The translations under genes and the position numbers were made by a program. The notes beneath the pieces are model-generated. The model ran no database searches and had not been told where the DNA came from. It was given only the letters and a program-made list of their open reading frames with translations. 64,000 bases of DNA, from the NCBI GenBank assembly GCA_949358305.1, contig OX442314.1:10354001-10418000 (forward strand), written 5' to 3'. This document shows, one piece after another, positions 1 to 63,500 of the stretch. The stretch's first letter is position 1. Each line of letters begins with the position of its first letter. The DNA comes from Strigamia acuminata (Eukaryota).

Positions 1-1648
1 TTTCTTTGCTTCTTCACCTTAAAAAAAATTAAACAATTAAATACTTATTTATATATAATTTTTTTTTTTACCGATGGTTTTATCGTTAAATATTTTCGGG
101 AATCCGCGATTCGGATATTTTCCTCTCAGCTGCCAAACGTCAAAAAATGGCTTCCAATCGATGTAATCGACGAGTCGCGATAAATCGTAATTTCGATACA
201 CGAGAGTGCCGAGTTTTTGAGGACATACTGAAAATTAATTTATTTTTAAGTATAATTTTATAAAATTACTATTTTCTGTTTTACCGGGATTGAATTCTAA
301 ATTTAATTTCTTCATCCGGGCGTTTTGTAGACTCAAAAATCGATAATCGGTTAAATTATCGTAATAATCGTTTCGAATTTCTTCATATTCCTCGCTAATA
401 TTTTCGATAAAATCGTTCCGGTTGTTGATATCGAGAAGACTCGAACACTAGAGATAAAAATGCAATTTATTTGATTTTAATAAATTTTTTAAAATTTATT
501 TGTTGTAACTTACTACGACAACACTTTTGGATGCGTCCAAAACATGGACCGTTGGTTGGCTGAATTTCGGCGCGATTTTCACGGCCGTGTGAGCTTTGGA
601 TGTGGTCGCTCCGCCGATCAGAAGTGGAATCCGCATTCCGATTCGTTGCATTTCCTTAGCGACGTGTACCATCTCGTCCAATGAAGGTGTTATTAGTCCT
701 GATAGGCCCACAATGTCCGCTTTTTCGCGAATAGCTGTTTGGATTATTTTTTCACATGGTGTCATAACACCCAAATCGATCACCCTAAATATATTCACAA
801 ATATTTTCAAAAATATGTCAAAAAATGTAACAAAATGTCAAAAAATGTCAAAAAATGTCAAAAAATGTCAAAAAATGTCAAAAAATGTCAAAAAATGTCA
901 AAAAATGTCAAAAATGTCAAAAAATGTTAAAAGATGTCAAAAAATGTTAAAAAATGTAACAAAATGTCAAAAAATGTAACAAAATATCAAAAAATGTCAA
1001 AAAATGTCAAAAAATGTCAAAAAATGTTAAAAAATGTAACAAAATGTCAAAAAATGTAACAAAATGTCAAAAAATGTAACAAAATGTCAAAAAATGTAAA
1101 AATAAAAGTTTCAACAAAATTTAAAAAAAAATTAAAGGGTTAAAAAAAAAAATATTTACTTGTAATTATTGCAACCCAAAACAACAGCTACAATATTCTT
1201 TCCTATGTCGTGCACGTCTCCTTTAACTGTAGCAAGAACTATTGTTCCGGAATAATGATTCTAAAACAGAAACAAAAGTCATCACTCGATTTACTGTACC
1301 CGTCAATCACGATTATATAATTACCGAATCGAAGGTACCAATTTCTTTCATCTTTTCTTGACGTTCTATCTCCATAAATGGAATTAAATGAGCAACAGCT
1401 TTTTTCATAACTCTGGCCGACTTAATCACTTGAGGCAAAAACATTTTACCACTTCCAAAAAGATCCCCGACAACACCCATTCCCTAAAAAAAATTAAAAA
1501 ATAATAAAAACCCAATAAAAATACATTTCCATCGACGATTATGGATTACTTTCATGAGTGGACCTTCGATGACATTTAAAGGTCGCGGGTATTTGATTAT
1601 GTTCAGTCGCGCCTCTTCCGTATCTTCTGTTACATATTTATCAATTCC
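1..1648 (-). CDS. MTR: Cobalamin-dependent methionine synthase, downstream exons (cap and B12-binding domains); gene continues beyond the left edge
   Basis: Spliced exons 1550-1648, ~1325-1483, ~1160-1260, ~515-784, ~286-448, ~72-227 and 1-17 translate to [63 protein letters not shown] (B12-binding DxHxxG), [14 protein letters not shown] and [26 protein letters not shown]. Introns are GT-AG. Confidence 0.97.
810..1100. repeat. Intronic minisatellite, 10-bp unit AAAAATGTCA
   Basis: Direct tandem copies inside an MTR intron. Confidence 0.95.
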
Positions 1649-4600
1649 CTAAACGATTTTAAAATAAATCAAAAGCCATTGAGTAAAAAGAAAACATAAA
1701 TTAAATTCTCTACAAAATAAAACTGGTTTTAGAATTTATCAAAGCCTTTATTTACATCAAACGAAACGGATTTATGTTTTAAGTGAGCAATTTGGTGTCC
1801 ATTTTATTTTAAGTTGCCCACAGACGGCGCTATCAAGGACGGAAGTTGAATAAAACAAACACACAAACAAATATCGTGGCAAGTTAAATCTTGGACGAAC
1901 ACTAGTGTATAGTGGTGCTGATGCGCCACCTACAAATTGAAAATTGAATTCGTAGATTGGTGGCCCTGAGCTGCCACCAGAAAAATAAAATTTGAAGTTG
2001 AAGTTTCAATTTTTAATTTTAAATATTAAAATTGGAAAACTTAAAATAAAATAAAATTAAAAAATTAAAAAACTAAAACTAAAATTGTTTTGGTCGTTTT
2101 ATGACGATAATCTGTCGTGTAATTTCGTCTCAATCAGCACAAGGCGAGGTGAACAGCAAGATTAACTGTTTGTGTCCGTTCGTTTTTCACGTTATTTAAT
2201 TTGGGTTTGATTTCCAAAACGTTGGTTGGTTTCATAAACATGGGATTAACATTTCCGCAAATTTCTCAGCAAGTTTGAGTTCGTATTTCTTTGAAAAATG
2301 ATCCATTTATTGTCTTACATATGTTCTTTTGCTATTATTTGGCGCCATTTCAGGCCTACTATAGGCCTAGTTCAAAATGTATTTTCTTCTGAAACGGAAA
2401 TTTGTCCGAGATCATCAAGTCACGAAAATTTACATCGCTGCCGTTTCGGGTCAGAAACGGGTGCTGTGGGTGCTGTTTGTCGAGAAAAGTTCAAGCGCGA
2501 GTGAGAAGCCATCGCTGCCATTTTTGTCATTTTTGTCATTTTCTTATTCTTATTTACCAGTTTAGTTTAATATCTAGTCCATTGATGTATAATTTTAGTA
2601 TTTAATTTATAATATTTTTGTATTCCATTGTAAAGTTATTAGAATTTATTCGCAGCGACCGAATAAATTAAGTGTGTTTGCTTAATGAAAATTATTGAAT
2701 TTTCCTTGCCAGATTAAGTTAGTCAGAGAATTTAGTTATGTATAAGTCCCTTTGCGGCAACAGTAATTTTGCAGTGTAAATCAGGATCACAGGTTGCACA
2801 GACAACCTGGCTATCTTGTTTAACACCGTTAAACATGAGACCCAGGTTGTCTGTGCAATCGGAGCTAACACTGAGACGTGAGAAATTTATGAGGAAGAGT
2901 AGAATAAACAGGAGCCATTTTATTTTAACTGAAGAAATACAGAAGAAAATACATTTCGAACTACGCCTATAGTAGGCCTAAAATGGCACCAAACAACAGC
3001 AAAGGAACATATGTTAGAAAATAAATGGATCATTTTTCAAAAAAAAAAACTATTTTTTTCTTACTGAGAAATTTGCGGAAATGTTATATTAATCCCGTGT
3101 TTATGAAACCAATCGACCTTTTCGAAATCAAACCCGAATTAAATACCGTGAAAAACAACGAACACAGCATGTCGAACAGCAAAATCTTGCTATTCACCTC
3201 ACCTCGTGCTACAGATTATTGTTTAGCGTCTCGTATTGTAACAGTCATGGACTGTGGTATAGTTTATAGCATCGTCATAAAACGACCAAAACAATCTGAA
3301 TTTTTAGTTTTTCAATTTTTCAATTTTATTTTAAGTTTGCCAATTTGAATTTTGAAAATTAAAAATTGAAACTTTGTTTTAACACACTCCGGAGTCGTTT
3401 GTGCGGGACTGCTTGACATTAGCAGAATTTTTCGCAATGAAGATTCATCAGACGTTCAAAACTTAAGCTTAGCTTTCGCCTGGTTAAACTATATGTTCGC
3501 AAACTCGCTATTTTCTTCTACGAGCTAATAGATGCGGTACTGGGTTTTTCCATACATTTTGTTCGCATTGAATTTGTCGTCATCTTTATCGCGGGCGGTG
3601 TAATGTTTGTGTCTATAGCACTTGTAATTTGGGAGTAATATTTTCTATTTAATTTAAACTACTGGTACCTCCTATTATTCATCCCGAGTAGCTTAAGACA
3701 TCATCTATTCCATTGGAATCACTAAAAAGTATGTTTTTAATTACGACAATTTAAACCGATATAAATCGCCATTTACACGATTGTGTTGGCTCATTACATA
3801 TATTTAACTTACACCACTATCAATTTCTTGTCATGTTGTTACGAAGTCAGATAATTTATTTAGGTTTATTAATTGTTTACATTTGATTTAGTCCTATGGC
3901 TACTTGTGGTCACTCCCCTAGTGACCTTCTTTAGCTAGGGTGGCTTGTGCCACCCCCATCCCTGCTTTTAGAGTTTAACTTGCAAGAAGCCTTGCAGAGA
4001 AGTTCCATGTTATCCCTTTGATATTAAAAAATAAAAATATATATTTATTGTGGTGCATTTTCTCGTTCGTTTTGTTTATCATTACAATAACTGTACTGTA
4101 TGCGTTTGGCTTTTCATTTTTCGCGGGATTTTCAAATTTATAACCATCTTATTATATGCTTTGGGACAGTTCACCGATTAAGTAAGTATTGAAAGATAAT
4201 TCTTCTCGTTTATAATGGAGGAGGTTTGATGGCTACCGCTATTATTCTACTTATTTGGGAGCAATACGATACAATATGGAAATATGGAAAACAAGCAAAA
4301 TTAACAAAGTATGCCAAACAACTCGTTATCAACACCAAGAGTCAGAAAAAGCAGAGACAACAACAAAAAACAAAATCAAGGAAGTGAACCCAACGCATCC
4401 CAGCGTTTCCGTGTCAAACAACTGTGGTGGTTCCACGGTCACCTAAGATTTATTCTAGTTCAATTTCTTGACTATTCATGTAAATTCATTTGTACGTTTA
4501 ATAAATATCTATTGTTTATTTTAAATAAGTACACACCATTTATTTGAAAATAACGAGGCGGATAAGAATGGATAAGAGATTAGAAATAATCTTTTCCTGT

Positions 4601-5061
4601 TCCCTAGTCTACACAGTTCTACACAAACCGAAAAAGACACATTCAAACACCACTACAATCATTGACAGCATCAACGCCTCACCGATCAAGCCGTAGTATT
4701 TTATACCGGAGTGACCGAGGTAGTCGAGTTTTATCATTTATATTCAAATCAAGAAGAATATTCCTATCCCAAAGAAGTCGGGCAAGGAAATAGTATTGGC
4801 TTTAAGCAAGACAATAGCCACGTCACCACGTAGACTATTGTTAATAACCCTAGACAAACCAAGCCAGAATAGAAGTCTGGATGACTGCGCTTCCACCGCC
4901 ATCTTGAGCAATGAAGATTCGATCGCATTAGTTTGGCTGAATTATACTCGTGAGATTTCTGTATTGTGCCACGAGTTTGTAGAGGTGGTATTTCCCGTAA
5001 ATTTCATATCAGTAGAAGCAACTATTATCTATATTGGGGGAGGTTTAATGGCTATGATAAC

Positions 5062-5244
5062 TGTTATGTATCGATATGAGAATTTGGGTATCGCCCTCTG
5101 GCGGCGAATTATGTAAAGTGTAAACCACGTGACCATATGTATGAATGAGCTGTGAACTCACTCTGGTGTACTATAGTCTAGCAGCTAGCAGTAATAAACA
5201 CCGTCTACCATTTGATGTGTGTGCCACTTTACTAATATACAACA
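5062..5244 (+). repeat. 5' LTR
   Basis: TGTTATG...TACAACA, matches 9442-9624 and contains AATAAA. Confidence 0.96.
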
Positions 5245-5382
5245 ATGGCGACGAGGTTGGACTGAATTCGGTTCGTGTGTGAAGTTTGTGCGTCGCGGCA
5301 TAAAAAGCGTGTATTTGTGAGAAGGTTAGTGCGGTGCGCCATTTTGGTGTGTGTGACCTTCGCAAGGACGCAGCGAACGAGA

Positions 5383-8300
5383 ATGTCGGCCGTTATTGGG
5401 AAAATTGGTGAATTCGATGAGGCGAGGGAGGAATTCGACCTGTATTTGGAACGCCTGAAGTATTTTTTCGCGGCAAACGACATTGGGGATGAAAAACAGT
5501 TATCCACGTTAATGGCGGTAATTGGTCCAGCCGCATACAAATTGCTGAGGAATCTCATGCAACCCACGGAATTGAAGGATTGGAAGTGGGATGATGTTGT
5601 GAAAAAGTTATCTGAACACTACAAACCCGCTCCAATAACTATTGCGGAGCGTTTTAGATTTTTAAAAAGGGACCAAAAAACCGGTGAGTCGATTGCGGAT
5701 TATATTGTGGAATTGAGACGATTGGCGTCGACATGCAGTTACGGTACGTTTTTGAATGATGCGTTACGTGACAAATTCGTATGCGGTTTAGCAAATGAGA
5801 CGATCCAGAAACGTTTGCTGTCTAAAAAGGATTTGAAATTAGCGGTTGCAGTGGATACGGCGGCCGCCATGGAAATGGTGGAACGCGATTCGACGCAAAT
5901 TAAAGTGCCACCGGTCATTACGGTGAACAAATTGGACGGTGAACGCCCGTTTAGGCCAAGATTTGACAAAAGCAAGGACCGGAAGGCATGCTATCGTTGC
6001 GGATACGATCATCCCGTGGATAAGTGCAAATACGTAGGTGCGACGTGTCACGCATGTGGGAAAATAGGACATATTTCCCCGGTATGTAAGTCAAGGACAA
6101 ATAAAGACGCAAACCAGGAAAGGCGGACATTTCGGCCCGAGCAAAAATTCGCAAAGAAGCTCGAGGTTCAGGGATCGGAAAACGATGAAGACCAGCCGAT
6201 ATTCGACTTATATCCAGTGTATTCGATTGGTAAGGTCGAAAGTTGTAAAAAATATATGGTTCCGATTAAGATAGCTGGTGTGTGCATTGAAATGGAATTG
6301 GACACCGCGGCGGATATAGCTGTTGTGGGTGGAAAGTGGTTTAAAGAAAATTTTCCGTCAATGCCATTAAAAATATGCGAAATGACTTTACTTTCATACA
6401 GTGGTGATGTCGTGGAAACCGAGGGACAGACCGACATCACAATCGAGTATAAGGGAAGGAGATACGTGTTGCCACTGGTAGTGGTAAAAGGTGATCGCCC
6501 GGGACTATTTGGCCGAAATTGGATTGAGAAAGTGAGTTTGGATTTGAAAAGTATTTTTGCAGTGACCGAGGCGAAGTCTGATAAACCGGACACTGTTGAG
6601 GATTTATTGAAGGATTATTCCAGTTTATTTGAACCAACAAAGGAGCCAATAAAAAATTTTAAGGCGACCATTAAGTTGCGCAAGGACGCGAAGCCCGTTT
6701 TTTGTAAGCATCGGCCAGTGCCATATGCACTAAAATCGGCGGTCGAGGCCCAGATTCAACGACATTTGGATGCGGGAATCTGGGAGCGCGTGGAGCATTC
6801 GGAATGGGCCACACCGCTGGTAAATGTTGTCAAACCAGATGGATCGGTGCGATGCTGTGGGGACTTTAAGATCACGGTAAACCCATGTTTAGATATTAAC
6901 CAATATCCGTTGCCAACTCAGCAGGATATTTTTGCAACATTATGCGGAGGAGAAGAATTCTCTTCAGTCGACTGTTCGGACGCATATGAGCAGATCGAGC
7001 TGGATAAGCAGGCTCAGGAGATATTGATGTTAAACACGCATATGGGATTGATGCGCCCAAAACGATTGGTGTATGGGTTTGCCGGGGCGTCGGCTATTTT
7101 CCAGCGAGCAATAGATCAGATCATTCAAGGAGTGAAGAGAGTCGTGGCATTCCAGGATGATACGATGACCACGGCGCCATCAAGAATCGAACATTTGATG
7201 GTTTTGAGAACTTTGTTTCAGCGTTTCAGGAAGTATAATGTTTGTTTGAATCGGAAGAAATGCAAGTTCCTGCAGAAAAGAATCAAGTACTTGGGACATA
7301 TAATTGATAAGGATGGAATCCATCCTACTACGGACAAAATTGATGCGATAAATAAAGTGCCATCGCCAAAGAATATATCTGAATTGCGTTCCTTTTTGGG
7401 ACTTTTAAATTATTATTGTAAATTTCTGAAGGATTTGTCAACAAAGTTAACACCTTTATATAGTCTTTTGCAGGACAAGGTAGAATGGAATTGGACTGAC
7501 GAGTGCGAGCGAACATTTCAACAGTGCAAGGGCGCTTTGACATCTGAGGCGGTGCTGGTGCACTACGACGTTCGTAAGCCACTTCGATTGACGTGCGACG
7601 CGTCACCAGTCGGGGTCGGCGCCATTCTTTCGCACATCATGGCGAACGGCGAGGAGCGCCCCATCGGCTATTCATCCCAGACCTTGACGCAGGCCCAGCG
7701 GGGCTATCCGCAAGGAGAAAGGGAGGCTCTGGCAATCGTGTGCGGAGTGCAGAAGTTTTACCAGTACCTCGTCGGGAGAGATTTCACTTTGGTGACTGAT
7801 CATCTTCCATTGGTCGCGATATTTGGCGACAAACGGGGGATCCCGACGTTGGCCGCTGAGCGCATTCGTCGCTGGGCGCTTTTATTGTCCACATTCAGGT
7901 ATAAAATTGAATACAAACGCGGAAGTGAAAACGTGAATGCGGATGCGTTGTCTCGCATGCCGGTGTCGGACGGCGTCGTTGGCATCGAGTCGCACATATT
8001 TAAACTATCGTTTATCGATGAGATGCCAATTGTGGCGAAGAATATTGGTGCTGCGACAAGGAATGACAAAGTTTTGGGATCGGTTTTGCGTTATCTTGGG
8101 GACGGATGGCCGGATGGCGTAAGCGACCCGGAGATTGCGCCGTTTTCACGTCGGCGAGAGGAACTGTCTGTCGATGGCGGGTGTATTGTGTGGGGAATGC
8201 GAGTGGTGATTCCGACGAAATATCGCCCGCACATTTTGGATTTATTACACGATACTCACTCGGGAATGGTAAAAATGAAGTCGATCGCGCGTGCGTACGT

Positions 8301-9393
8301 ATGGTGGCCGGGTTTGGATGCGGAGATTGAGAGTGTTGCGAGGAAGTGTCATGCGTGCCAGCAATGCCAGGCTGATCCCCCGGAAGCGCCTTTCAGGTCG
8401 TGGTCGTGGCCGTCCGGCCCGTACGAGCGTATACACATCGATTTCGCCGAGTTGCGAAAGATACACTATTTAATCATATATGATAGTTTTTCGAAGTGGA
8501 TCGATGTGATTCCCATGACGACAACAACATCAGAGCGAACCATAGAGGTCTTACGGTGGAAGTTCGCGGATTTCGGGGTTCCGGTTGAGTTGGTGTCGGA
8601 CAACGGTCCTCAGTTTTCATCCGTGGAATTTGCGACGTTTTTGGCAATGAACGGGATCAAGCAGACGTTGGTGCCGGCATACCATCCCGCCTCTAATGGT
8701 GCAGCGGAGAGGGCCGTGCGGACATTTAAGGAGTCGTTGGAGCGTATGATGACCGATGTAAAAGACAATACGACTACAAGTCATAAGATTACGAGATTTT
8801 TATTGCGATATCGGAATACTCCACACGCGGTGACGGGTAAGACCCCTGCTGAGTTGTTTATTTGTAGGAATGTTCGAACGCGGTTCTCTTTGGTGAGGCC
8901 GGATGTGAGGCGCCATGTTCACGAACAATTGGATAAGATTCATAACGCGCAGACGGGGCGTGATGCCCGTGTTTTTGAAGTCGGCCAGGCGGTATGGATA
9001 AAGAGGTATCATACGCGCGGTCCAGAGTGGGTGCGCGGAATCATTAGCTCCGTTCAGAGCTCGAGGACGTACGTTGTGGCTGTCGGTTCGGTTTTGAGGA
9101 CGGTCCATATCGATCAGATGCATTTGGACCGTGAGATGCCTGCTGGGGGAACGACTCGGAATGATGTGGACGGTCGGGTTGACGTGGAGGAGCTCGATAG
9201 TGATCAGGAACAAACGGCACCAGACTTGGAGAACGCCGAGGCCGAAGAGGTCCAGATGCCGGAGTTAGTTCGGGACATCGTGGAACCTCGTGCGAACAAT
9301 GACATTCAAAACAATCCAGGTGACTGTGTACCGAGACGTCCTGGATTGCGTGCAAGAGAGCTATTGAAGGAACCGGATAGACTAAGATTGTGA
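5383..9393 (+). CDS. Gag-Pol polyprotein (single ORF, 1336 aa from ATG 5383)
   Basis: Gag with two zinc knuckles (CYRCGYDHPVDKC, CHACGKIGHISPVC), protease LDTAA, RT (AFQDD), RNase H (CDASPVG..EREALA), integrase HHCC plus DDE (HIDF, SDNGPQF, AERAV). Domain order PR-RT-RH-IN is Gypsy-type; no env. Confidence 0.95.
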   Translation: MSAVIGKIGEFDEAREEFDLYLERLKYFFAANDIGDEKQLSTLMAVIGPAAYKLLRNLMQPTELKDWKWDDVVKKLSEHYKPAPITIAERFRFLKRDQKTGESIADYIVELRRLASTCSYGTFLNDALRDKFVCGLANETIQKRLLSKKDLKLAVAVDTAAAMEMVERDSTQIKVPPVITVNKLDGERPFRPRFDKSKDRKACYRCGYDHPVDKCKYVGATCHACGKIGHISPVCKSRTNKDANQERRTFRPEQKFAKKLEVQGSENDEDQPIFDLYPVYSIGKVESCKKYMVPIKIAGVCIEMELDTAADIAVVGGKWFKENFPSMPLKICEMTLLSYSGDVVETEGQTDITIEYKGRRYVLPLVVVKGDRPGLFGRNWIEKVSLDLKSIFAVTEAKSDKPDTVEDLLKDYSSLFEPTKEPIKNFKATIKLRKDAKPVFCKHRPVPYALKSAVEAQIQRHLDAGIWERVEHSEWATPLVNVVKPDGSVRCCGDFKITVNPCLDINQYPLPTQQDIFATLCGGEEFSSVDCSDAYEQIELDKQAQEILMLNTHMGLMRPKRLVYGFAGASAIFQRAIDQIIQGVKRVVAFQDDTMTTAPSRIEHLMVLRTLFQRFRKYNVCLNRKKCKFLQKRIKYLGHIIDKDGIHPTTDKIDAINKVPSPKNISELRSFLGLLNYYCKFLKDLSTKLTPLYSLLQDKVEWNWTDECERTFQQCKGALTSEAVLVHYDVRKPLRLTCDASPVGVGAILSHIMANGEERPIGYSSQTLTQAQRGYPQGEREALAIVCGVQKFYQYLVGRDFTLVTDHLPLVAIFGDKRGIPTLAAERIRRWALLLSTFRYKIEYKRGSENVNADALSRMPVSDGVVGIESHIFKLSFIDEMPIVAKNIGAATRNDKVLGSVLRYLGDGWPDGVSDPEIAPFSRRREELSVDGGCIVWGMRVVIPTKYRPHILDLLHDTHSGMVKMKSIARAYVWWPGLDAEIESVARKCHACQQCQADPPEAPFRSWSWPSGPYERIHIDFAELRKIHYLIIYDSFSKWIDVIPMTTTTSERTIEVLRWKFADFGVPVELVSDNGPQFSSVEFATFLAMNGIKQTLVPAYHPASNGAAERAVRTFKESLERMMTDVKDNTTTSHKITRFLLRYRNTPHAVTGKTPAELFICRNVRTRFSLVRPDVRRHVHEQLDKIHNAQTGRDARVFEVGQAVWIKRYHTRGPEWVRGIISSVQSSRTYVVAVGSVLRTVHIDQMHLDREMPAGGTTRNDVDGRVDVEELDSDQEQTAPDLENAEAEEVQMPELVRDIVEPRANNDIQNNPGDCVPRRPGLRARELLKEPDRLRL

Positions 9394-9441
9394 AACATAG
9401 AAATTGTCGAATTTATCATTCATTGTTGTGGGGGGAAATAT

Positions 9442-9624
9442 TGTTATGTATCGATATGAGAATTTGGGTATCGCCCTCTGGCGGCGAATTATGTAAAGTG
9501 TAAACCACGTGACCATATGTATGAATGAGCTGTGAACTCACTCTGGTGTACTATAGTCTAGCAGCTAGCAGTAATAAACACCGTCTACCATTTGATGTGT
9601 GTGCCACTTTACTAATATACAACA
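9442..9624 (+). repeat. 3' LTR
   Basis: Matches 5062-5244; preceded by a polypurine tract. Confidence 0.96.
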
Positions 9625-12004
9625 ATAACCATTATTGTACTTATTTGGAAGTAATACTTAATATTTAATTTACATTTTCAGTATAATATACGGTATATAA
9701 CATTTTTTTTTATAGAATTCGGGGAAGATGTCACAAGTATACCCCATATGAGTGTTTTAGACTGAGTTTGGACTCCAGCAAATGAACGATCGCGGACGAA
9801 TAAATGAGGTTTTGGAACAGTTAGGAAGAGAGTTGTTTCATTGGCCGTGGCGGCCGTCACAAGATGCATTACGTACAAAGTTGCTGAGAAGTTAAAAATT
9901 TTCATGCGTTTATTATTCTGTTGCTAAATTTGTTTTAATATCTCCGTTTGGAATAAAAGTGTTTGGCATTTACTTGACTTGTTGGTTTTTTTTTTATAGT
10001 TATGGCGCTGATCGCATGTCAGTGTCCATATATCGAGAGAATTGCTTTTACCGTTAAAAGATTTTACAATTGCCACAAACACAGGTCCCTAAACGGAGTC
10101 AAGGAGTTTTTTAACTTCATAAAACACTGCCATTGGCTGAAATTATCACAAACAACATGAAGTTGAAATTAAGAAATAATTTAACTTCATTGCAGTTGCC
10201 AAAAATGCCAGCTATTCTATGGCAACCCAACACAAGAACAGTCAGGAGAAATTGTGGAAATAGTCAAGAGAAAGAGATAAAAGGATTCCAATAAGAGACA
10301 ATAAAACTGAACACACAAGAAACGAAAATAACTTTCTACCATGTTGTTGTTTTCCAACAGCAAAAAACTTTTCTTGCATTTGGTAATCTTATGAGGATTT
10401 TTGCAACTCTGGATAAAGTCATTTTGAAAAAAGTGAAAGTTTCTCAAAGGTTTACAAATATTTTAGTTGAACAACAACTGTCAAAATAACCCAATGGGTT
10501 TTTCCAATAGTGTTTTTTGATGCTTTACATCATTAAACAGCAAACGTGGCATTTTTCTTAAAAAATAATAAAAAAAAAAGCGAATTAACCTAGAATGAAA
10601 CCGATCCGACCGGTCTGTGCACGTTCAGAAACACCTTGAGCCGTCCCCAACAAAGATGAAAAGACAAAGAACCACTCCTGGCTGGCCAAAGTCCTGTTCC
10701 ATGGGTCATCCAGAAAAAGGTGATTGAAAAATTTTCCACACGCCCAGAGGAGCCCAACCAAGAGCATTTGAAACGATTGATTACAATTAAAAGAACAAGA
10801 ACCTTGACCATCCTCTGTAAAAACCAGGGTTCAGAAATCATATCCCAAACTGAAAACTTTATGTCATAAAAATGGCAAACGCCATTACCAATCACGAAAA
10901 CCCACAAGACAAATTCAATTTCGAATAAAAAATTCAACCAAACTTTGAAAAAACACCAAAAAGCACCAAATAATATTCTTGCCAAATAAATACTCAACCG
11001 CCACATAACTGAAAAAATACAGAAGAAAATACAATTCGAACTAAGCCTACAGTAGGCCTAAAATGACGCCAAACAATATCAAAAGAACATATGTAAGAAA
11101 ATAAATGGATCATTTAGAAATACGAATTCAAACTTGCTGAGAAATTTGCGGAAATGTTAATCCCGTGTTTATGAAACCAACCAACCTTTTGGAAATCAAA
11201 TGCGAATTAAATACCGTGGAAAACGAACACAGCATGCCGAACAGCAAAATCTTGCTGTTCACCTCGCCTTGTGCTGAGCGAGACGAAATTGCGTGACAGA
11301 TTATTGTTTAGCGTCTAGTATTGTTTATCGTCTCGTATTGTTTATAGCATCGTCATAAAACGACCAAAACAATTTTATTTTTAGTTTTTCAATTTTTTCA
11401 ATTTTATTTTAAGTTTTCCACTTTGAATTTTGAAAATTAAAAATTCAAACTTTGTATTCAAATTTTCCTCTTATTCCTTTTTTTTAAATTTCAATTTGCC
11501 CTGGATACAAATTGGATACAAATTAATATTACGAATGCTTTGTACGATGAATAAAATTGGTACATTTGGCATTTTTCCGTGGAGAAATGCGCGGGAGTTG
11601 TTTGTTTTCGTCACCTCACTCTGAAGCGTGAACTCGGTTTTTGCATTTCGTCTACATTAGCGAACCGCTTTTTAATTATTTCAAAAACTATGTTCAAAAA
11701 TGGGGAAAGGTTAAAGAGAAAGAAAGTGTACCGTAGTAGGTAACAAAATGGCTTCTTTTAGTCAGACCTCCCAAGTTAGACCGCGGATTTCAAATTTCTA
11801 AGAAAATTGATAAAAAAAACTTTTTTGCAAACATTTTGTGGCCCCATTGTAAATTTACACTCTTTATAGATATTTCCAACTTTTCACAATTATATATACC
11901 CGGTATATTGTATATAGAATATAATATGTATTATCTTTACGCCACCACCACTAAAGGCGCAACAGTATTTAATACTTCATATTTTAGTTTACACCACAAG
12001 AAAA

Positions 12005-12235
12005 TTCCTCCGATTATTATCCGGAACCGCCTGCGTGAGAGAGTACGCCAGCCAAAGGAGTCTGTGGCCGCATATGTTGCTGTTCTGCGCGGTCTCGCGG
12101 AGAAGGGAGAGTACAGAGACTCCAAGCAGGTGGACTTTGCGGTCATGGACCAGTTGATCGAAGGCCTGGGGAATGCCACGGCAAGACAGTATTTCCTATT
12201 GCAAAAGCCGAGTACTTTAAAGGAGGCCTGGAGGA
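12005..12235 (+). pseudogene. Second, further deleted copy of the gag remnant
   Basis: Near-identical to 21355-21585 and embedded in the duplicated unit. Confidence 0.75.
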
Positions 12236-18200: not shown

Positions 18201-18510
18201 TTACGAATGCTTTGTACGATGAATAAAATTGGTACATTTGGCATTTTTCCGTGGAGAAATGCGCGGGAGTTGTTTGTTTTCATCACCTCACTCTGAAGTG
18301 TAAACTCGGTTTTTGCATTTCGTCTACATTAGCGAACCCTTTTTTAATTATTTCAAAAACTATGTTCAAAAATGGGGAAAGGTTAAAGAGAAAGAAAGTG
18401 TACCGTAGTAGTTAACAAAATGGCTTCTTTTAGTCAGGGCTGCCTGAGCCTTATATATCGTCTTTTCAGACCTCCCAAGTCAGACCGCGGATTTCAAATT
18501 TCTAAGAAAA

Positions 18511-20392: not shown

Positions 20393-20720
20393 TTTGATAA
20401 AAAAAAATTCTTTGCAAACATTTTGTGGCCCCATTGTAAATTTACACTCTCTATAGATATTTCCAACTTTTGACAATTATATATACCCGGTATATTGTAT
20501 ATAGAATATAACATGTATTATCTTTACGCCACCACCACTAAAGGCGCAACAGTATTTAATACTTGTGGAAATTATATTGCCTAACTTAGGATTGGAACAG
20601 CAATGTTCTCTCCTCTCTCATAAAATATACAGAGCCATACAATAACAATTGCAAAATAACATTAATAACGCACGAAGAGGCAAAACATATTGCTCAAATG
20701 GTTGGACACAAACGCAACAC

Positions 20721-23473: not shown

Positions 23474-23612
23474 GTCATCTGTGACTTTTGTAATACTGAA
23501 GAACTGCTGAAAGAAGATTTAATGAAGTGCCCGACCACCCACTGGTTTTGTCAAAATTGCATAAGGTACCAGGCCTAGAAAGAAGTGTCCCGAGGCAACT
23601 GGAAGATCGCCT
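23474..23612 (+). pseudogene. RNF216/TRIAD3-like RBR RING1 fragment
   Basis: Translates to VICDFCNTEELLKEDLMKCPTTHWFCQNCIRYQA*KEVSRGNWKIA (C-x2-C-x12-C-x3-H-x2-C-x2-C). Overlapping fragments lie at 13349-13533, 22726-22908 and ~15700-15755, where the stop codon reads GAG. Confidence 0.6.
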
Positions 23613-36696: not shown

Positions 36697-36699
36697 TTT

Positions 36700-52602: not shown

Positions 52603-54170
52603 TTATTTAATTCCAACTTTTCCCAGACGAGAATCAGTCTTGGGATTGGCTGTTATGGTCTGAACAGCGACAATGGCTTCGTTGATTTTCGTCTGCAGGT
52701 CGCGTAAATCTCTAATGTATAGCAATCGCAAGATTTTGGCCGCTTGATTCAGAACGTAATCGCCAGTGTCGAATCCTAGGTCGGATTCTTGGATTGGGAA
52801 TGGCTTTCCTTCTGCGCATGCGCCGCCAATTTGTTTCATTCCCTCGGCTGACAGTTGTTCGTTGATAATTCGACGAAGCGCCTGAAAAATATTAAAAAAT
52901 AAATTTATTTATTTTTACATTTTTAATTATATATGGAATAAATATTTACTCGAAGTGTGATTAAATGATCGGGATGTTTGCACATGCTTATCAATTGGGC
53001 GATCGCATTCACGCCCTGTTTGAATTCGTCGGAATTGACTAAAAATTTTATTGAAAAGATAAATGAAGAAATGGGAATATGTTTTCGAATATTTTATGAT
53101 TTAAACTTACAGTCGAGATTATCCAGAGGATTGGTTGACACGACTTGAGGGATCGACATTTGGTTGATGTTTTCAGCCGTTTTTTCGCCGTATTTCTCAA
53201 CTGTAGTTCAAATAAATTCAGTTTAGAACACATGAAATTGATATTTTATGCAATGCTGTGGAAAAATGTAATTTTTATGCCTAAAATTATTCATTTTGTG
53301 CCTGAACAATTAACTTTTGTGCCTGAACAATTAATTTTTGTGCCTGAAAAATTCATTTGTGTGTCTGAAAAATTAATTTTTGTGTCTGAAAAATTTATTT
53401 TTGTGCCTAAAAAATCATTTTTGCGCAGAAAAATTCAAATTTGAGCCTAAAAATACTCATTTTTGTGCAGAAAAACCAATTTCTGTGTCTAAAATTCGTT
53501 TTGAGGCTAAAACAAATTCATTTTTATGCCTAAAACTTCATTTTTGAGCCTAAAACTTAATTTTTGTACATGAAAATCAATTTTTTGACTCAATTTTTGC
53601 ATTTTAAGATGCATTTCAGCATTCATTGCTTCTAAACTAATTACTTTTTCATCAAAAATATAAAATTTTCGTCTAAAAAGTGAATTTTTAATTTATTTTG
53701 CTTCGCACCGGCTACCAAAGTAGCTTGCTGCGGCTCGCATTTTATGTTTACCATTTTCGCCGTACTCCGCTCGTACTGCCAATCCTAAAAGCCAGTCTGT
53801 GACAGCTTCGATCTCTTTCGCATCATGCGGACAATCCAGATCTTTTAAATACTATTTTTCGTTCAAAAAAAAAAAACATTATTAACCATATACAAATCCA
53901 AATTTACAATTTCTTCACTTTCTTAAAGTGTTTTTGCCAATCATTAGCCGCAATGTTTTTTAATTTTCCCCTGTCTTCTATTTTGTAATGTCTCACTTTC
54001 TGGTCTTCAATCCACACGACCAATGTACGAAATTGTTTCTCGTCTGAAAGAATAATGCAAAAATCGGTTAATAAATTCAAATTTAAACACGTGTTAAATC
54101 AATATTCACCGTGCACATTGAAAGAGTCGGGACTGTGAAAATCTAGAGCTAATAATTTCCTTTTAAACAT
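52603..54170 (-). CDS. RTRAF: RNA transcription, translation and transport factor (C14orf166/CGI-99), multi-exon
   Basis: MFKRKLLALDF.., FRTLVVWIEDQKVRHYKIEDR, DWLLGLAVRAEY, LNQAAKILRLLYIRDLRDLQTKINEAIVAVQTITANPKTDSRLGKVG. Confidence 0.95.
53220..53638. repeat. Degenerate ~21-bp minisatellite between short inverted repeats
   Basis: TTTGTGCCTGAACAATTAA units flanked by AGTTTAGAACACATGAA and TTCATTGCTTCTAAACT. Confidence 0.6.
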
Positions 54171-56569: not shown

Positions 56570-57591
56570 GTTAAACAGAAGTAATCAGATTCAGTCGAGA
56601 GTAAATATCGATAGGAAATGAATTGTTCCCGATTAAACTTATCAGATAAGAGTGATCATGTTGATTTGATTCAAACAAGCTGATTCTGAGTCATAACTTG
56701 AGTGAAACTCACGTGGTGTATCAGGTTTTCTCATAACCCAAGATTATTTTTTGTTTCTTATAAAGTTCAGAAATTATTAATTCAGTTAAGTTCAATTACA
56801 AAATACTAATTTAGTAAATTAAAATAATAATATTAAAATAATAATATTTTTTGTCATTTCAACATTTCATCGCCATGTTTTTTTAATGACGTCACTTCAA
56901 TTTCGATTTCCGGTAGTTTCGGTTTTAGTGATATCGTTTTTAATTTTCAAAACAAGATCAGATAACGACAAACAATCGATACTTATCTTGACAATTGGTT
57001 AGAATTGGGATAGAATTTCAAGTTTTCATGACATAACAAATATGGCAGTGCACTGAGCTATGCTAGCAATGTTTATGCGACATATAAGAAAACTGTCGAA
57101 GCCTTCCATCAACAAAGATGAAGTGGATTTTGAAGAAGAAATCACTACATTTAGGTAATATTTATTTCCCCACCAAAAATATACTTGGAAAAATACCCCA
57201 AAAAAATTAATTTATAAAAAAAAAGTTAAAATTTCCTCCCATTGGGCATTCCACCTTTTAGTTAAACCCAAGGTGCAGTATCTAGTCCATGTGCGACTTC
57301 TCAATAACAATACTCCAATATTTTAATTTTCAAAACTCATAAAACTCTTTGTTATTTTTTTAAATAAAATATTTTGTCAGCATTAAAAATTAATTTTTTA
57401 TTAATAAATAATTTCTAAAAAAAAGTCAGACAATATTTAGTCAAAATTTCGTACACAGCGCCCCCGTTCGCCATTTTCAATTTGGGAGTCGGGTCTGTCA
57501 ATGACCCTATTAAGCGTTTGTAGTTTTATTTTTTAGTAAATGAAGGTTTTAAGACATGTAAAAAAGGGTGTTAGTCCTAATCAAGGTAGTC

Positions 57592-60500
57592 ATGTTTAGC
57601 AAGAAGCCGCATGCAGACATCAAAAAGTCGACGCAGAAGATCCTGGACTGCAAAAAGGACACGGCAACTCGTCTAAAACACCTCCGAGTTGTCCTGGGTG
57701 AGTAAACAGCACGGAAAATGCCACCCGAAACAACACATCCCCATCGAGCAACTCCATTGAGCGTTGTGCGTACTGTGCATCCATTTCCTGCTCGTTCAAT
57801 TGCAATTCCGCGCAATCAAAGCCAAAGTCGCTTTTCTTTTGATGACAATTTACCAAGTGTTGCTATGGAGTTGTTCGGTTTGTGTTGTTATTCAATTAAG
57901 GGAAGGAAATTGGTGTTTTCATTATTGATTGGTGTTAATTTTGGTTTTTTTTTCTTGTTTTTTTTTATTTTGCAGATAATGTCGATGTTGCAGAATCGAA
58001 GACGTTTTTCGAAGCGAATCATAGCCACATTTATTATATATTTTATGATCAGTTCATTACTGTTGAAAATTGCATTAAACAAAAAGGTGGAGTGTTTGAT
58101 TTGACGCAGAGGCGGATCAAGAAGACGTACAAAGGGGTGGACATTTCGGTTCAATTTTTCAAACAGAAAAAATGGATGTTTTGGGCTAAAAATTGGATGT
58201 TTTGGGTTAATAATTGGATATTTTGGGTTCAAAAATGATCGTTTTTGGCCTCAGAATGAATATTTTGGTGTCAGAATGAATATTTTGATCTCAGAAAAAA
58301 TATTTTAGACTTAGAATGAATTTTTTGGTCTCGATGAATTTTCGGTCCCAAAAATAAATTTTCGGTCTAAAAAATGAATTTTTTGTCCTAAAAAAATGAA
58401 ATTTTGGTTTAAAGAGGAATTTTCGGTTCAAAAAATGAATTTTCGGTTCAAAAAATGAATTTTCGGTTCAAAAAATGAATTTTCGGTTCAAAAAATGAAT
58501 TTTCGGTTCCAAAAATGAATTTTTGGTCCAAAAAAAATTAAACTTTGGTTCAAAAAATTAATTTTTTTATTAATTTTCCATGGCACCCCACTTGATCCGT
58601 CTCTGATTTGATGTTTGTTTTGTTGTTTTTGATGTAACACACCTGGCGGTCGCCATTTTTATTTCTTTCAGCTCATAAATCTCATCGGGAAGAATTGGAC
58701 TCGGTTCTGTATATATTCGAGAAGATTATAGTTTTATTACCGGAATTATTAGCAAAGAAATGGCAATGTCATAGTTTAGGAAGAATTATTAAAAAGTTGT
58801 TGCATCCTGGGAACAATTTCAAAGTGATTTAAAAATAGACGTATTTTTAAAATGATTTAAAACGTTGATTTTATTTTTTTGTATTTTTTTTCAGTTGAGA
58901 CGAGAGGCAATGCGTCTTTTTCTTTTGTGGTATCAAACTTTGGGCGAAACTGCGCCGACGGAACTTCATTATATATTTAGTTGTTTGGTTCCCGGAATAC
59001 AAAATAAGTTTACGCTCGAATCTATAATTAGTGGCTCGATAGGAGCTGATAAACATTCCACAGAAATGGGTAGAAAATGGATTTTTATTTTTATTTTTTA
59101 AATTAATTGATTTATACATTTTTTTGGAATAGTTGCTGTAAATCCTATTGAAATTTATCCACTTCTTCCGCCTCAGATTGGCGAAAAACAACTCGAAAAT
59201 TTGACTCAATTTTTCCTGGAAAATCTTTTAGATTTAATGGTTACTCAAGTAATTTTTTTTTTTTAAATATTGTTTTTATTTTTTTTGAATATGATTGATT
59301 TTATTTTGATTTTGATTTTGATTTTATTTTTATTTTTATTTTTTAGGTGATTAGAATTGAGTGGCGAGATAAGTCTAGTTTTAAACAGCAAAGTTGTTTC
59401 AATTTCTTGTTTGAAAGGTTTAAAAAGCACTATTTATTGTTGATTTTTCCTGATTTTTCATGGACTACTAGTTTATACAAGCCTAACTTAGGTAAAGTAT
59501 TTATTGATAGAAAATCGGAGCCGTAGCAAACACGCATGTGCCAAAATGCACTTTTAAATTTGGACAAAATTGTGTATTTTTAGACTAAATTTGGACACAT
59601 TTGTACATTTTTAGACTAAATTTGGACAAATTTTGACATTTTTAGACTAAATTTGGACAAATTTTGACATTTTTAGACTAAATTTTGACAAATTTGGATA
59701 TTTTTAGACTAAATTTGAACAAATTTTGACATTTTTAGACTAAATTTAGACAAATTTGGATATTTTAAGACTAAATTTGTTTAAAATTTGCCATTTTTGT
59801 ACTAAATTTGGGCAAAATTTGCTATTTTTAGACTAAATTTGGGCAAAATTTGCTATTTTTATACTAAATTTGGGCAAAATTTGCTATTTTTAGACTAAAT
59901 TTGGGCAAAATTTGATAATTTTAGACTAAATTTTGACAAACTTTGATAATTTTAGACTAAATTTGTTAAAAATTGGCCAAAATTTAATATTTTTAGAGAG
60001 ATTAATGACAAAATTAGACATTTTTAAACAAAAATTGGACAAAATTGGACATTTTTAAACACTAAATTTGGACAAATTTTGACATTTTTAGACTAAATTT
60101 GGACAAATTTTGACATTTTTAGACTAAATTTTGACAAATTTGGATATTTTTAGACTAAATTTGAACAAATTTTGACATTTTTAGACTAAATTTAGACAAA
60201 TTTGGATATTTTAAGACTAAATTTGTTTAAAATTTGCCATTTTTGTACTAAATTTGGGCAAAATTTGCTATTTTTAGACTAAATTTGGGCAAAATTTGCT
60301 ATTTTTATACTAAATTTGGGCAAAATTTGCTATTTTTATACTAAATTTGGGCAAAATTTGATAATTTTAGACTAAATTTTGACAAACTTTGATAATTTTA
60401 GACTAAATTTGTTAAAAATTGGCCAAAATTTAATATTTTTAGAGAGATTAATGACAAAATTAGACATTTTTAAACAAAAATTGGACAAAATTGGACATTT

Positions 60501-63500
60501 TTAAACACTAAATTTGGACAAATTTTGACATTTTTAGACTAAATTTGGACAAATTTTGACATTTTTAGACTAAATTTTGACAAATTTGGATATTTTTAGA
60601 CTAAATTTGAACAAATTTTGACATTTTTAGACTAAATTTAGACAAATTTGGATATTTTAAGACTAAATTTGTTTAAAATTTGCCATTTTTGTACTAAATT
60701 TGGGCAAAATTTGCTATTTTTAGACTAAATTTGGGCAAAATTTGCTATTTTTATACTAAATTTGGGCAAAATTTGCTATTTTTAGACTAAATTTGGGCAA
60801 AATTTGATAATTTTAGACTAAATTTTGACAAACTTTGATAATTTTAGACTAAATTTGTTAAAAATTGGCCAAAATTTAATATTTTTAGAGAGATTAATGA
60901 CAAAATTAGACATTTTTAAACAAAAATTGGACAAAATTGGACATTTTTAAACAAAAATTGGACAAAATTGGGCATTTTTAAACTAAAATTGGACAAAATT
61001 GGACATTTTTAAACTAAAATTGGACAAAATTGGACATTTTTAAACTAAAATTGGACAAAATTGGACATTTTTAAACTAAATTTGGACAAAATTGGACATT
61101 TTTAAACGAAAATTGAACAAAATTGGACATTTTTCGACAAAAATTGGGAAAAATAGAAAAATATCAATCACGTGAAAAAATAAAATTTAATCTCAAAAAT
61201 TGACATAATGCAACGCTTGCTGCGGGGAAGTGCACAAAATCCTCATAATTTGTTGATTAATTCATTTTACACGCAGATTTACCCGATCTCAGAGCCGACA
61301 CAGAGGAGGAAAATAGGCTAGATTACGGTCTCATGGGGTCATCTTTAAATAAAATTGTAGTTATTCAATGGATTTCAAATTTCATTCACATGTGGAGAGT
61401 TGAAGTGCCAATTCGAACTTTAGTGTAATAATAATAATAATAATTTTAATCAAATATTTTTACAAATTTAAAATTGTTTTCTTTGATTTTAGACCTGTAG
61501 TGGACGATTCAACACCGCAAGATCAAAAAGGATTTGAATCGAGTGCAGAAAAAGAATCAAATTGTTCTTACAACAGTAGCGAGTATCCTACGTACATGGA
61601 GTACATGATCGCTAGAGATACCTTTTATTTTAATAGGGAGAATGTCAATTTTGTTCATGAAATATTTAGACAAGTAATTTGTTTGTTTTCTTGATATTTT
61701 TGTGGAATTTTGGTTTTTTTTTTTAAATTAATTTTAAATTGTTTTGTTTTTCGTTTTAGGCTTTCTTGTTATCGTCTGTTCACGCTTCAACTTTGAAAAG
61801 AGTTATATTGGTGTATAGGGATTGGATTGACAATAAGGTGCGTTCGTAATGATTTCTCTTGTTGGTTTTGAAATTTTTTTTTTGTGATGGTTTTTCTCAT
61901 GTTTTTTTTCATTTTTTCATGTTTTATCATGTTTTTTCCATGTTTTTTTCAGTTTTATCATGTTTTTTCCATGTTTTTTTCAGTTTTATCATGTTTTTTC
62001 CATGTTTTTTTCAGTTTTATCATGTTTTTTCCATGGTTTTTATGTTTTATCACGTTTTTTTTTTATGTTTTATCATGTTTTTAATATATGTTTCCATGTT
62101 TTTACGTTTTTTATATATTTCACCATGTTTTTTAATGTTTTCTTTGTTTTCTTCATATTTTTTCTTCGTTTTCTCATATTTTTTCTTCGTTTTCTCATAT
62201 TTTTTCTTCGTTTTCTTGTGTTTTTTCTTCGTTGCCCATGTTTTTCTTCGTTTTTCACATTTTCTACGTTTTCTTTGTTTTTCATTGTTTTTTCTGTTAT
62301 TTATTTATTTTTTTTAATTTTTTTTTATTATTTCTCATGACTTTTTTCTTTTTTAAAAATTGTTTTAATCTTTACAATTTCTTTTTATTAAATTCCTATA
62401 ATTTTAATTAGAGTTTCGAACGACCAATTTTTATGTTGGAACCTTACGACGGTCTGTCAATTCTTTCTCGAGACGGACAATGTAACTCAACTTACACGGA
62501 AGGACCGTTAACACCAGAGGTATACATTAAAATTAAAATTATTATTTATAAAAAGGAAAAATGCAATGAAAATTACTTTCCTTTTTAATTCAGTCAAAGG
62601 GTCGATTAAGAAATGATTCCTACCTCGGTGCAATTCATCGCGAACCTCTTCCTGTTCGAGCCGGAATGCAAAATACTTTGCAAGTATTTATCACAAACGC
62701 TGCCAACGTGTTTTTACTCGAGAGTAAATCGAGCAGTCAGAAATTATTGGAGGATCAGGTAATTCGATAATACGTCAATTTCAACGATTTTTAGTTTTTA
62801 TATAAAAAATTTGTTAATTTCAGGTCGATTTGTGTAAACGGATATTAAATCTCTATCGGTTTATGGTAATGAACTTAACGATGGACCAAAAAACATGGTG
62901 AAAATGATTTTATTTTGCCAAATCATTTTTATTCTTCGTTTTTCATGTTTATTTGCATGTTTTTCTTCGTTTATCATGTTTATTTGCATGTTTTCTTCGT
63001 TTTTCATGTTTATTTGCATGTTTTCTTCGTTTTTCATGTTTATTTTCATGTTTTCTTCGTTTTTCATGTTTATTTGCATGTTTTCTTCGTTTTTCATGTT
63101 TATTTTCATGTTTTTCTTCGTTTTTCATGTTTATTTTCATGTTTTTCTTCGTTTTTCATGTTTATTTTCAAGTTTTTCTTCGTTTTTCATGTTTATTTCC
63201 ATGTTTTTCTTCGTTTTTCATGTTTATTTGCATGATTTTCTTGATATTTCATGATATTTCTTCGTTTTTTCATTATTTTTCTTCGTTTTTTCATTATTTT
63301 TCTTTGTTTTTTCATGATTTTTCTTCGTTTTTTCATAATATTTCTTCGTTTTTTCATAATATTTCTTCGTTTTTTCATAATATTTCTTCGTTTTTTCATA
63401 ATATTTCTTCGTTTTTTCATAATATTTCTTCGTTTTTTCATAATTTTTCATTATTTTGCAAGTTTTATCTTTGTTTTTCTTGATTTCTCATGAATTTTGA

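What the first reader, a model, noticed from the sequence alone, without database searches (positions are those of the whole stretch)
810..63445. Helically phased A/T-tract minisatellites in nearly every long intron (PATC-like)
Seen: more than 15 separate arrays of differing sequence all have units near n x 10.3 bp and consist of A- or T-tracts spaced about one helical turn apart. Units: 10 bp (810, 33800); 20 bp (24425, 38250, 41350, 48250, 50345, 58420); 21 bp (42560, 46788, 53290, 62150, 63340); 30-31 bp (35598, 59560, 61930, 62930); 41 bp (46340). They lie in introns of six housekeeping genes and were not seen in the short intergenic spacers. Established: phased A-tracts bend DNA and influence nucleosome positioning, and in Caenorhabditis intronic periodic An/Tn clusters (PATCs) protect germline genes from silencing. 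Inference: a convergent intron-based chromatin signal in a non-nematode animal, or a nucleosome-linked mutational bias.
Basis: partly seen in the sequence, partly recalled or inferred. Interest (0 to 1): 0.75.

Follow-up and report, generated by a model that had tools for sequence, protein, structure and literature searches.

The report
Helically phased intron minisatellites in centipede
In a soil centipede, most long introns of six housekeeping genes are filled with tandem repeats whose A/T runs recur once per DNA turn, like the bent 'PATC' DNA that protects worm genes from silencing; they likely grow by repeat slippage under a chromatin-linked filter, and any protective role is untested.

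Summary
All 18 listed arrays exist, with A/T tracts phased at about 10.2 bp. They fill 14 of 21 ordinary introns of 235-1785 bp (10 of 10 over 500 bp) and 0 of 7 spacer/UTR stretches. Short repeats have mixed periods (12 of 44 helical); loci of 100 bp or more are mostly helical (15 of 20, p=0.0008). The five exceptions lie in a transposon-filled 31.5-kb intron.

The organism is close to the centipede Strigamia maritima, for which PATC-like DNA is already in print as one sentence and a genome score of 5.1% (PMC4947018). Not found in print is the anatomy. There are two classes: six sense-strand T-tract arrays grown inside minimal introns, and nine alternating A-tract/T-tract arrays, up to three inside inverted-repeat (MITE-like) inserts. 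They are not one family. Even the most homogeneous arrays are already helical, unlike the worm route from 35-bp Helitron repeats.

Best reading: slippage expansion in transcribed introns, filtered by a helical-phase (likely nucleosome-linked) bias. Anti-silencing function is untested. The scan noted similar phased introns in other eukaryotes.

The parts
807..1102 (-). One-sided array, 10-bp unit, T-tracts on sense strand; MTR intron 785-1159
   Evidence: T4+ runs 30, A4+ runs 0 on sense
24426..25103 (-). Alternating-class array, units 20-23 bp (mean 20.6); only helical array in the 31.5-kb MTR intron 1649-33201
33797..34026 (-). One-sided array, 10/21/31-bp mixed unit; MTR intron 33785-34049
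35587..35939 (-). Alternating-class array, 31-bp unit; MTR intron 35580-36015
38235..38658 (+). One-sided array, 20-bp then 10/11-bp units; STX5 intron 38162-38664
41350..41582 (+). Alternating-class array, 20-bp unit; ATG14 intron 41296-41709
42341..42949 (+). Alternating-class array, 20-24 then 21-bp units; ATG14 intron 42308-43029
46339..47128 (-). Alternating-class arrays, 41-bp (46339-46700) and 21-bp (46788-47128) units; BAZ1A intron 46243-47165
48081..48366 (-). Alternating-class array, 20-bp unit; BAZ1A intron 47956-48510; enclosed by 27-bp imperfect inverted arms near 48000-48026 and 48457-48483 (TA-flanked, MITE-like; label recalled)
   Evidence: (0 of 100 shuffles reached the arm score)
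50334..50915 (-). One-sided array, 20-bp unit; BAZ1A intron 50293-50935
53261..53585 (-). Degenerate alternating-class array, 20-21-bp unit; RTRAF intron 53201-53751 (intron shown by a spliced contig); weak inverted arms 53220-53236 / 53622-53638
   Evidence: (2 of 100 shuffles)
58107..58605 (.). MITE-like insert: 15-bp terminal inverted repeats (58107-58121, 58591-58605) with an 8-bp target-site duplication (7 of 8 identical; hAT-type by recalled rule); a contig of organism B matches up to 58106 and then runs on unlike
   Evidence: (table 8, X5 record 16)
58167..58565 (+). Alternating-class arrays, 20-21-bp units, inside that insert; RALGAPA intron 58087-58671
59555..61154 (+). Alternating-class array, 31-bp unit with a 446-bp higher-order repeat (43 x 10.37 bp; internal steps 31, 73, 93 bp); RALGAPA intron 59492-61276
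61892..62292 (+). One-sided arrays, 31-, 29- and 21-bp units; RALGAPA intron 61838-62411
62924..63498 (+). One-sided arrays, 30-31 and 21-bp units; RALGAPA intron 62898-63525
1..36696 (-). Host gene MTR (methionine synthase), runs off the window start
   Evidence: 93% identity to S. maritima T1JGD5 over both modelled halves
37371..39229 (+). Host gene STX5 (syntaxin-5-like)
   Evidence: open spliced frame; name from my reading of the protein, no Pfam hit on the one exon sent
39583..43224 (+). Host gene ATG14
   Evidence: open spliced frame; PF10186 hits on 3 of 4 exons sent, each below the curated cut-off
44225..51971 (-). Host gene BAZ1A/Acf1
52603..54170 (-). Host gene RTRAF
   Evidence: PF10036; five introns shown by a spliced X4 contig
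57069..64000 (+). Host gene RALGAPA, runs off the window end
   Evidence: 90% identity to S. maritima T1JGD1

Best explanation
These are PATC-like intronic minisatellites of a Strigamia-like centipede that likely grow by slippage or unequal exchange inside transcribed introns, with a likely nucleosome- or bend-linked filter that lets only units of whole helical turns (about 10.2 bp) expand. Shown: the arrays, their phasing, their intron location, two structural classes, little shared sequence between sites, strand polarity, and a period filter that acts on long but not short repeats. Inferred: seeds come from two sources, the intron's own T-rich tract (one-sided class) and the interior of short DNA-transposon inserts or older phased DNA (alternating class). 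Inferred: a duplication of n x 10.2 bp keeps A/T tracts on one face of the helix, so it is formed, tolerated or re-duplicated more often than other lengths. Predicted: the DNA is bent (13-24 degrees per turn versus about 7 for shuffles) and alters local nucleosome placement. A protective effect on gene expression may follow but is not needed to explain the pattern.
For: Period filter: TRF loci with period 7 or more are helical in 15 of 20 loci of 100 bp or more, but in 12 of 44 shorter loci (Fisher p=0.0008); in ordinary introns 14 of 14 long loci versus 6 of 13 short ones. Weak phasing exists without tandem repeats: 56 short introns show a best period of 10.3 bp, 0 of 100 Markov nulls reaching it, and array edges are phased but degenerate. 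Seeds alone are not enough: microhomology in short introns falls at helical lags only 30% of the time versus 24% if flat. Multiple origins: mean 8-mer overlap between the 15 sites is 3% (maximum 25% and 16%, both between neighbouring introns of one gene), and flanks share no common terminus. Local growth: 6 of 14 host introns keep under 100 bp without the array. Polarity follows transcription, not the chromosome strand: 6 of 6 one-sided sites are T-rich on the sense strand (3 genes on each strand), 9 of 9 alternating sites have G>C on sense; flip test p=0.018 for k=8 versus 0.79 for plus-strand orientation. Phase is kept through higher-order steps of 31, 73, 93 and 446 bp. Phasing strength does not rise with divergence (Spearman -0.09, p=0.68, 22 sub-arrays). 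Phase-dependent mutation bias is documented in worm PATCs (PMC4947018, Fig S7 legend).
Against: One window, no genome held, so no genome-wide period histogram and no comparison with tissue-specific genes. The filter could equally be selection. Polarity is weak once the baseline skew of short introns is allowed for (p about 0.05-0.06; flip test p=0.055 at k=6 and 0.045 at k=10). The 15 sites are not fully independent: the alternating motif recurs in many contigs of three species and one 12-mer of it occurs 11 times versus 0.5 expected. Seven long introns have no array. The short-intron signal has a wide bootstrap interval (0.004-0.19), and spacers/UTRs and the transposon-filled intron show faint phasing too. 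The curvature figure comes from a recalled AA-wedge model, not a measurement.
Confidence: 0.5

Rival explanations
1. The arrays are a selected anti-silencing or barrier signal, convergent with worm PATCs, that keeps germline/housekeeping genes active among methylated transposons.
For: All six host genes are of housekeeping type; natural and synthetic PATC introns protect worm transgenes and lose the effect when shuffled (PMC4947018); S. maritima methylates most of its transposons and some promoters (PMC7343188 passages); MTR here carries a 31-kb transposon-filled intron with few arrays (2% versus 46%); sequence differs between sites while phase is kept; the orthologous RTRAF and RALGAPA introns appear long in organism C too (table 8).
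Against: No expression, chromatin or fitness data here; 63 of 77 ordinary introns have no array; one array sits in an insert that seems absent from organism B; two neighbouring genes (NPC2-like, unknown gene) have none, but their introns are few and short.
Confidence: 0.27
2. One transposon-borne minisatellite family with a helical unit by descent was scattered into introns, as proposed for Helitron repeats in C. elegans and oysters.
For: Up to three alternating-class arrays lie between inverted arms, one with an 8-bp target duplication; the alternating motif recurs in many contigs of three species (summed depth 318-813 over the RTRAF array versus mostly 10-45 over exon bins); worm precedent (bioRxiv 10.64898/2026.08.08.743475).
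Against: The three sets of arms are unrelated to each other; no shared flank among 15 sites; 8-mer overlap 3%; one-sided arrays have 6-119 bp flanks of ordinary intron sequence; a mobile element should insert in either orientation, whereas polarity follows transcription; no 35-bp units and no rise of phasing with age.
Confidence: 0.15
3. The pattern is a by-product of AT-rich, low-complexity introns or of assembly error.
For: Introns are about 80% A+T with many runs; near-perfect arrays can be mis-sized by assemblers.
Against: Markov and run-shuffle nulls give no such signal; period test p about 1e-8 for 15 of 17 sites if treated as independent; contigs of run X3 cover the RTRAF array with no differences; arrays carry internal variants and higher-order structure.
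Confidence: 0.05

Closest known systems
PATC-like DNA of Strigamia maritima (Frokjaer-Jensen et al. 2016, PMC4947018, text and Table S4)
   Same: Same genus or a close relative (93% and 90% protein identity). The paper scores 5.1% of the S. maritima genome as PATC>60 (3.3% of non-repeat, 24% of soft-masked DNA; scrambled 0.2%; C. elegans 9.8%), among the highest non-nematode rows in the part of the table I read (Culex is higher at 6.5%). These arrays are very likely part of that signal.
   Different: The paper gives one sentence and a genome score; no location, unit lengths, strand polarity, classes or origin.
Periodic An/Tn clusters (PATCs) of Caenorhabditis (PMC4947018; PMC1474062; PMC7725773)
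   Same: About 10-bp phased An/Tn clusters over hundreds of bases in introns of broadly expressed genes, linked to intron expansion; similar A-tract/short spacer/T-tract blocks are visible in smu-1 and smu-2 introns (by eye).
   Different: The worm introns shown are degenerate, not tandem; here most are homogeneous tandem arrays (up to 96% identity at the unit lag). A strictly one-sided sense-strand T class is present here. Function is shown in worms only.
Helitron-minisatellite-derived PATCs (Alkhaldi et al., bioRxiv 10.64898/2026.08.08.743475)
   Same: Minisatellite substrate, transcription-linked context, recurrent independent gain, some link to DNA transposons.
   Different: In worms young repeats are 35 bp and become 10-bp periodic with age by point mutation; here the units themselves are helical multiples and the most homogeneous arrays are already phased. 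Inserts here have terminal inverted repeats, not recognised Helitron ends.
Interspersed satellites of Caenorhabditis with A-tracts and palindromes (PMC4595182)
   Same: Short A-tracts and palindromic cores proposed to favour expansion by slippage (passages).
   Different: Main families there have units such as 12, 16 and 35 bp and form large families; here units are confined to helical multiples and sites share little sequence.

Membership tests
PATC (Caenorhabditis) | Short An/Tn clusters phased at about 10 bp over extended runs | tested here: met
   Pooled period 10.2 bp, amplitude 0.89, 0 of 100 nulls; 22 of 22 sub-arrays 9.8-10.8 bp
PATC (Caenorhabditis) | Score above threshold with the Fire 2006 algorithm | not testable with these tools
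   Paper and code not held; I used my own autocorrelation index
PATC (Caenorhabditis) | Non-coding and concentrated in introns | tested here: met
   15 of 15 sites inside modelled introns (one intron shown by spliced contig); exons show no signal; 0 of 7 spacers. One window only.
PATC (Caenorhabditis) | Enriched in germline-expressed genes and repressive domains | not testable with these tools
   No genome, no tissue RNA or chromatin data; housekeeping status is inferred from gene identity
PATC (Caenorhabditis) | Intrinsic curvature | tested here: inconclusive
   Predicted only: 13-24 versus about 7 degrees per turn in 15 of 15 sites with a recalled wedge model
PATC (Caenorhabditis) | Protects transgenes from germline silencing | not testable with these tools
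   Needs a reporter assay
Helitron-derived PATC (2026 preprint) | Arises from a 35-bp Helitron minisatellite and gains 10-bp phase with age | tested here: not met
   No 35-bp unit among the TRF rows; phasing unrelated to divergence; no shared element ends. No Helitron library was available, so a Helitron origin of single sites is not excluded.
Single dispersed satellite family | Units descend from one consensus with shared flanks | tested here: not met
   Mean 8-mer overlap 3% over 105 site pairs; no common flank. The alternating class does share a loose motif.
hAT-type MITE (58107-58605) | Short terminal inverted repeats plus 8-bp target-site duplication | tested here: met
   15-bp arms, 14 of 15 complementary; 8-bp duplication, 7 of 8. 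The superfamily rule is recalled.
hAT-type MITE (58107-58605) | Further copies and an empty site | tested here: inconclusive

The most novel reading that the evidence does not exclude
Geophilomorph centipedes have independently evolved a PATC system by a different route from worms: unrelated seeds (intron T-tracts and different DNA-transposon inserts) are amplified only in whole helical turns inside germline-transcribed introns, and the resulting bent DNA shields housekeeping genes from the transposon-methylation machinery of this lineage. That would give a second animal system, with young datable arrays, in which to separate mutation from selection in the origin of PATCs.
Probability: 0.25. 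Interest if true: 0.75.

Novelty: new variant of a known kind. Interest (0 to 1): 0.45.

Why it matters
How PATCs arise, and whether they exist as a functional signal outside nematodes, is open. The centipede signal was noted in 2016 but, in my searches, never dissected. Here the elements are young tandem arrays whose unit length is already helical, so they offer a direct test of whether duplication itself is quantised by the helical repeat or whether selection keeps phased arrays. The lineage also methylates transposons, which makes the anti-silencing idea testable in a chromatin setting unlike that of worms. If the arrays prove neutral, they still show a strong length bias in minisatellite growth that drives intron size (46% of ordinary intron DNA here).

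Tried and rejected
No whole genome is held, so the genome-wide tests were not possible. The run search listed no holder on record as RNA; X4 behaved as spliced RNA contigs when laid. Only 51000-58150 was laid, so introns outside it rest on homology (MTR, RALGAPA) or on open spliced frames (STX5, ATG14, BAZ1A), and array length variation between individuals remains open. An ab initio exon parser invented exons inside arrays and was replaced by spliced alignment and hand curation. tblastn returned nothing because of my gap settings. Rfam: 0 matches in the window. A scan of metagenome contigs for a two-copy alternating motif gave 0 loci. Same-gene arrays are not significantly more alike than others overall (p=0.23-0.55). 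The run-shuffle null overstates z (the LTR interior scored 4.1), so I rely on the Markov null. Coding function of arrays rejected: they lie in introns of genes whose exons join in frame, though some arrays have open frames. Fire et al. 2006 was not held. Look-ups of earlier notes by place and by sequence were empty. Literature searches for a description of these arrays: (PATCs + Strigamia, 0 papers); none found beyond PMC4947018. Supplements not seen that may bear on this: those of the 2026 preprint (its Fig. 6a/S10 survey may include Strigamia; the main text does not name it), Text S1 of the S. maritima genome paper, and three oversized files of PMC4947018.
Full report
Organism and genes. An MTR exon is 93% identical to Strigamia maritima methionine synthase (the top-scoring hit, catfish, is 72%; other hits 68-78%), and a RALGAPA exon is 91% identical to S. 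maritima T1JGD1. The window is therefore from a geophilomorph centipede close to S. maritima (inference). Spliced alignment gave MTR at 93% and RALGAPA at 90% identity. STX5, ATG14, BAZ1A and RTRAF were curated by hand to open frames, with support from Pfam and protein hits. Five RTRAF introns and one NPC2-like intron are shown as CT..AC joints in contigs of run X4. The model has 78 introns: 56 of 130 bp or less, 21 of 235-1785 bp and one of 31,553 bp.

Observation. They form 22 sub-arrays at 15 host sites. Tract phase is 9.8-10.8 bp in 22 of 22; pooled best period 10.2 bp with amplitude 0.89, against 0.02 for Markov-4 controls. Arrays occupy 14 of 21 ordinary long introns, 10 of 10 above 500 bp, and 46% of ordinary intron DNA; the giant MTR intron has one (2%). 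None of 7 spacer/UTR stretches (3.9 kb) has one (p 0.004-0.006). The link to long introns is partly circular: without the arrays 35-269 bp remain, and 6 of 14 fall under 100 bp.

More than chance. Taking periods 10, 11, 20, 21, 30-32 and 40-42 as helical (23% of 7-50), 15 of 17 hand-merged long sites are helical (p about 2e-8 if independent, which they are not fully). A control that does not depend on that prior: among automatically merged TRF loci with period 7 or more, 15 of 20 loci of 100 bp or more are helical against 12 of 44 shorter ones (p=0.0008), and all five long exceptions lie in the transposon-filled giant intron. Repeats of any period are seeded, but in ordinary introns only helical ones grew (14 of 14 long, 6 of 13 short).

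Anatomy. Six sites are one-sided: T-runs only on the sense strand (20-41 T4+ runs, 0-1 A4+ runs), three in minus-strand and three in plus-strand positions. Nine sites alternate an A-rich and a T-rich tract around a short core, in 20-21, 31 or 41-bp units; all nine have G>C on the sense strand. Orientation by transcription explains k-mer sharing better than orientation by chromosome strand (flip test p=0.055, 0.018, 0.045 for k=6, 8, 10; plus-strand 0.59-0.79). Short introns have the same skews more weakly (T>A in 34 of 56, G>C in 37 of 51 untied), so the polarity is what local growth would inherit (p about 0.05 against that baseline). TpA steps are depleted in all 15 sites (o/e 0.09-0.72), and a recalled AA-wedge model predicts 13-24 degrees of bend per turn versus about 7 for shuffles and 3 for the 28-bp array. 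The largest array keeps phase through steps of 31, 73, 93 and 446 bp.

Origin. Sites share little exact sequence (mean 8-mer overlap 3% over 105 pairs; 25% and 16% for two pairs of neighbouring introns) and no flank, so they are not one family. The alternating class does share a loose motif, which is matched at 80% by many contigs of organisms A, B and C (summed depth is not a copy number). Of 12 sites with both flanks long enough to test, three have inverted arms beyond shuffles. The clearest, 58107-58605, has 15-bp arms and an 8-bp target duplication, and a contig of organism B matches up to base 58106 and then runs on unlike, as expected if the insert is missing there. The three sets of arms are unrelated. 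In organism C the orthologous RTRAF intron seems long as well (at least about 670 bases from two contig ends; table cut, tentative). Weak 10.3-bp phasing is present in the 56 short introns without tandem repeats (0 of 100 nulls; bootstrap 0.004-0.19), borderline in 7 long introns without arrays (4 of 100), faint in the giant intron (0 of 40) and in spacers by AA/TT only (1 of 100; 17 of 100 by AAA/TTT), and absent in exons (33 of 100). That background raises helical-lag microhomology only from 24% to 30%, too little to give 14 of 14, so a second filter on expansion or retention is needed. Phasing strength does not depend on array homogeneity.

Mechanism. I commit to slippage or unequal exchange in transcribed introns with a helical-phase filter that is likely chromatin-linked (0.5). 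A selected anti-silencing role (0.27) is the main rival and could coexist; one transposon-borne family (0.15) and artefact (0.05) fit less well. Nothing here tests function.

What is known. PMC4947018 (read: parts 1-4 and 7 of 7 of the text, supplement legends, Table S4 rows, part 1 of the intron file) defines PATC function in worms and states that some distant organisms have PATC-like structures, naming S. maritima; Table S4 gives 5.1% (24% within masked repeats). bioRxiv 10.64898/2026.08.08.743475 (read: parts 1-2, sections 13-14, passages) derives worm PATCs from 35-bp Helitron minisatellites remodelled with age, reports PATC-like satellites in oysters, and does not mention Strigamia in its text. 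PMC7343188 (passages) reports strong transposon and promoter methylation in S. maritima. PMC1474062, PMC7725773, PMC4595182 and PMC4244043 were seen as passages. Fire et al. 2006 was not seen. Searches found no description of centipede intron arrays. Earlier notes of this scan describe phased T- or A/T-tracts in introns of microbial eukaryotes and Perkinsus; these are unchecked and suggest only that the pattern recurs.

Verdict. It works like PATC DNA in form; membership by function is untested, and the Helitron route is not met. The existence of such DNA in this lineage is known, the tandem, born-helical, two-class anatomy is not described in what I could search. New variant of a known kind; interest 0.45.

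Noticed in passing
window 1649-33201: A 31.5-kb intron splits MTR between two codons that are adjacent in S. maritima. Nearly all of it (1884-33154) is bounded by a 65-bp inverted repeat and is a mosaic of 80-97% identical internal repeats, i.e. a giant composite transposon-like insert.
   Followed up: partly
window 5062-9626: Gypsy-type LTR retrotransposon with 100% identical 185-bp LTRs and one 1336-aa gag-pol frame (RT, RNase H, integrase), so a very recent insertion.
   Followed up: partly
window 18560-20340: GC-rich (60%) block of 7/14/23/37/45-bp repeats rich in palindromic hexamers, with an internal 315-bp inverted repeat and inverted flanks; non-helical.
   Followed up: no
window 40378-40827: ATG14 intron filled by a palindromic MITE-like insert with several inverted arms and no phased array.
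   Followed up: partly
window 45089-45147 and 49710-49771: Two BAZ1A introns need GC donors to keep the frame; the second is an unusual GC donor or a sequence error.
   Followed up: no
window 54627-55399: Two-exon gene of about 236 aa on the plus strand with no Pfam hit, partly covered by an X4 contig; its 3' end meets the polyadenylated 3' end of the NPC2-like gene.
   Followed up: partly
window 55773-55813: A 40-bp piece in an NPC2-like intron is matched by many contigs of three species with loose ends at both sides: a short dispersed element; no Rfam match.
   Followed up: no
window 54341-56410: An X3 contig differs from the window at 38 sites and 7 gaps in 2.07 kb while neighbouring contigs are near identical: a divergent haplotype block.
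   Followed up: no
window 25051-26250: Degenerate, non-tandem 10-bp phasing beside the 24426 array in the giant intron, the most worm-like stretch of the window.
   Followed up: partly
P0002 and P0161: The S. maritima orthologues of MTR and RALGAPA carry near-consecutive accessions (T1JGD5, T1JGD1), which hints that the gene neighbourhood is conserved.
   Followed up: no
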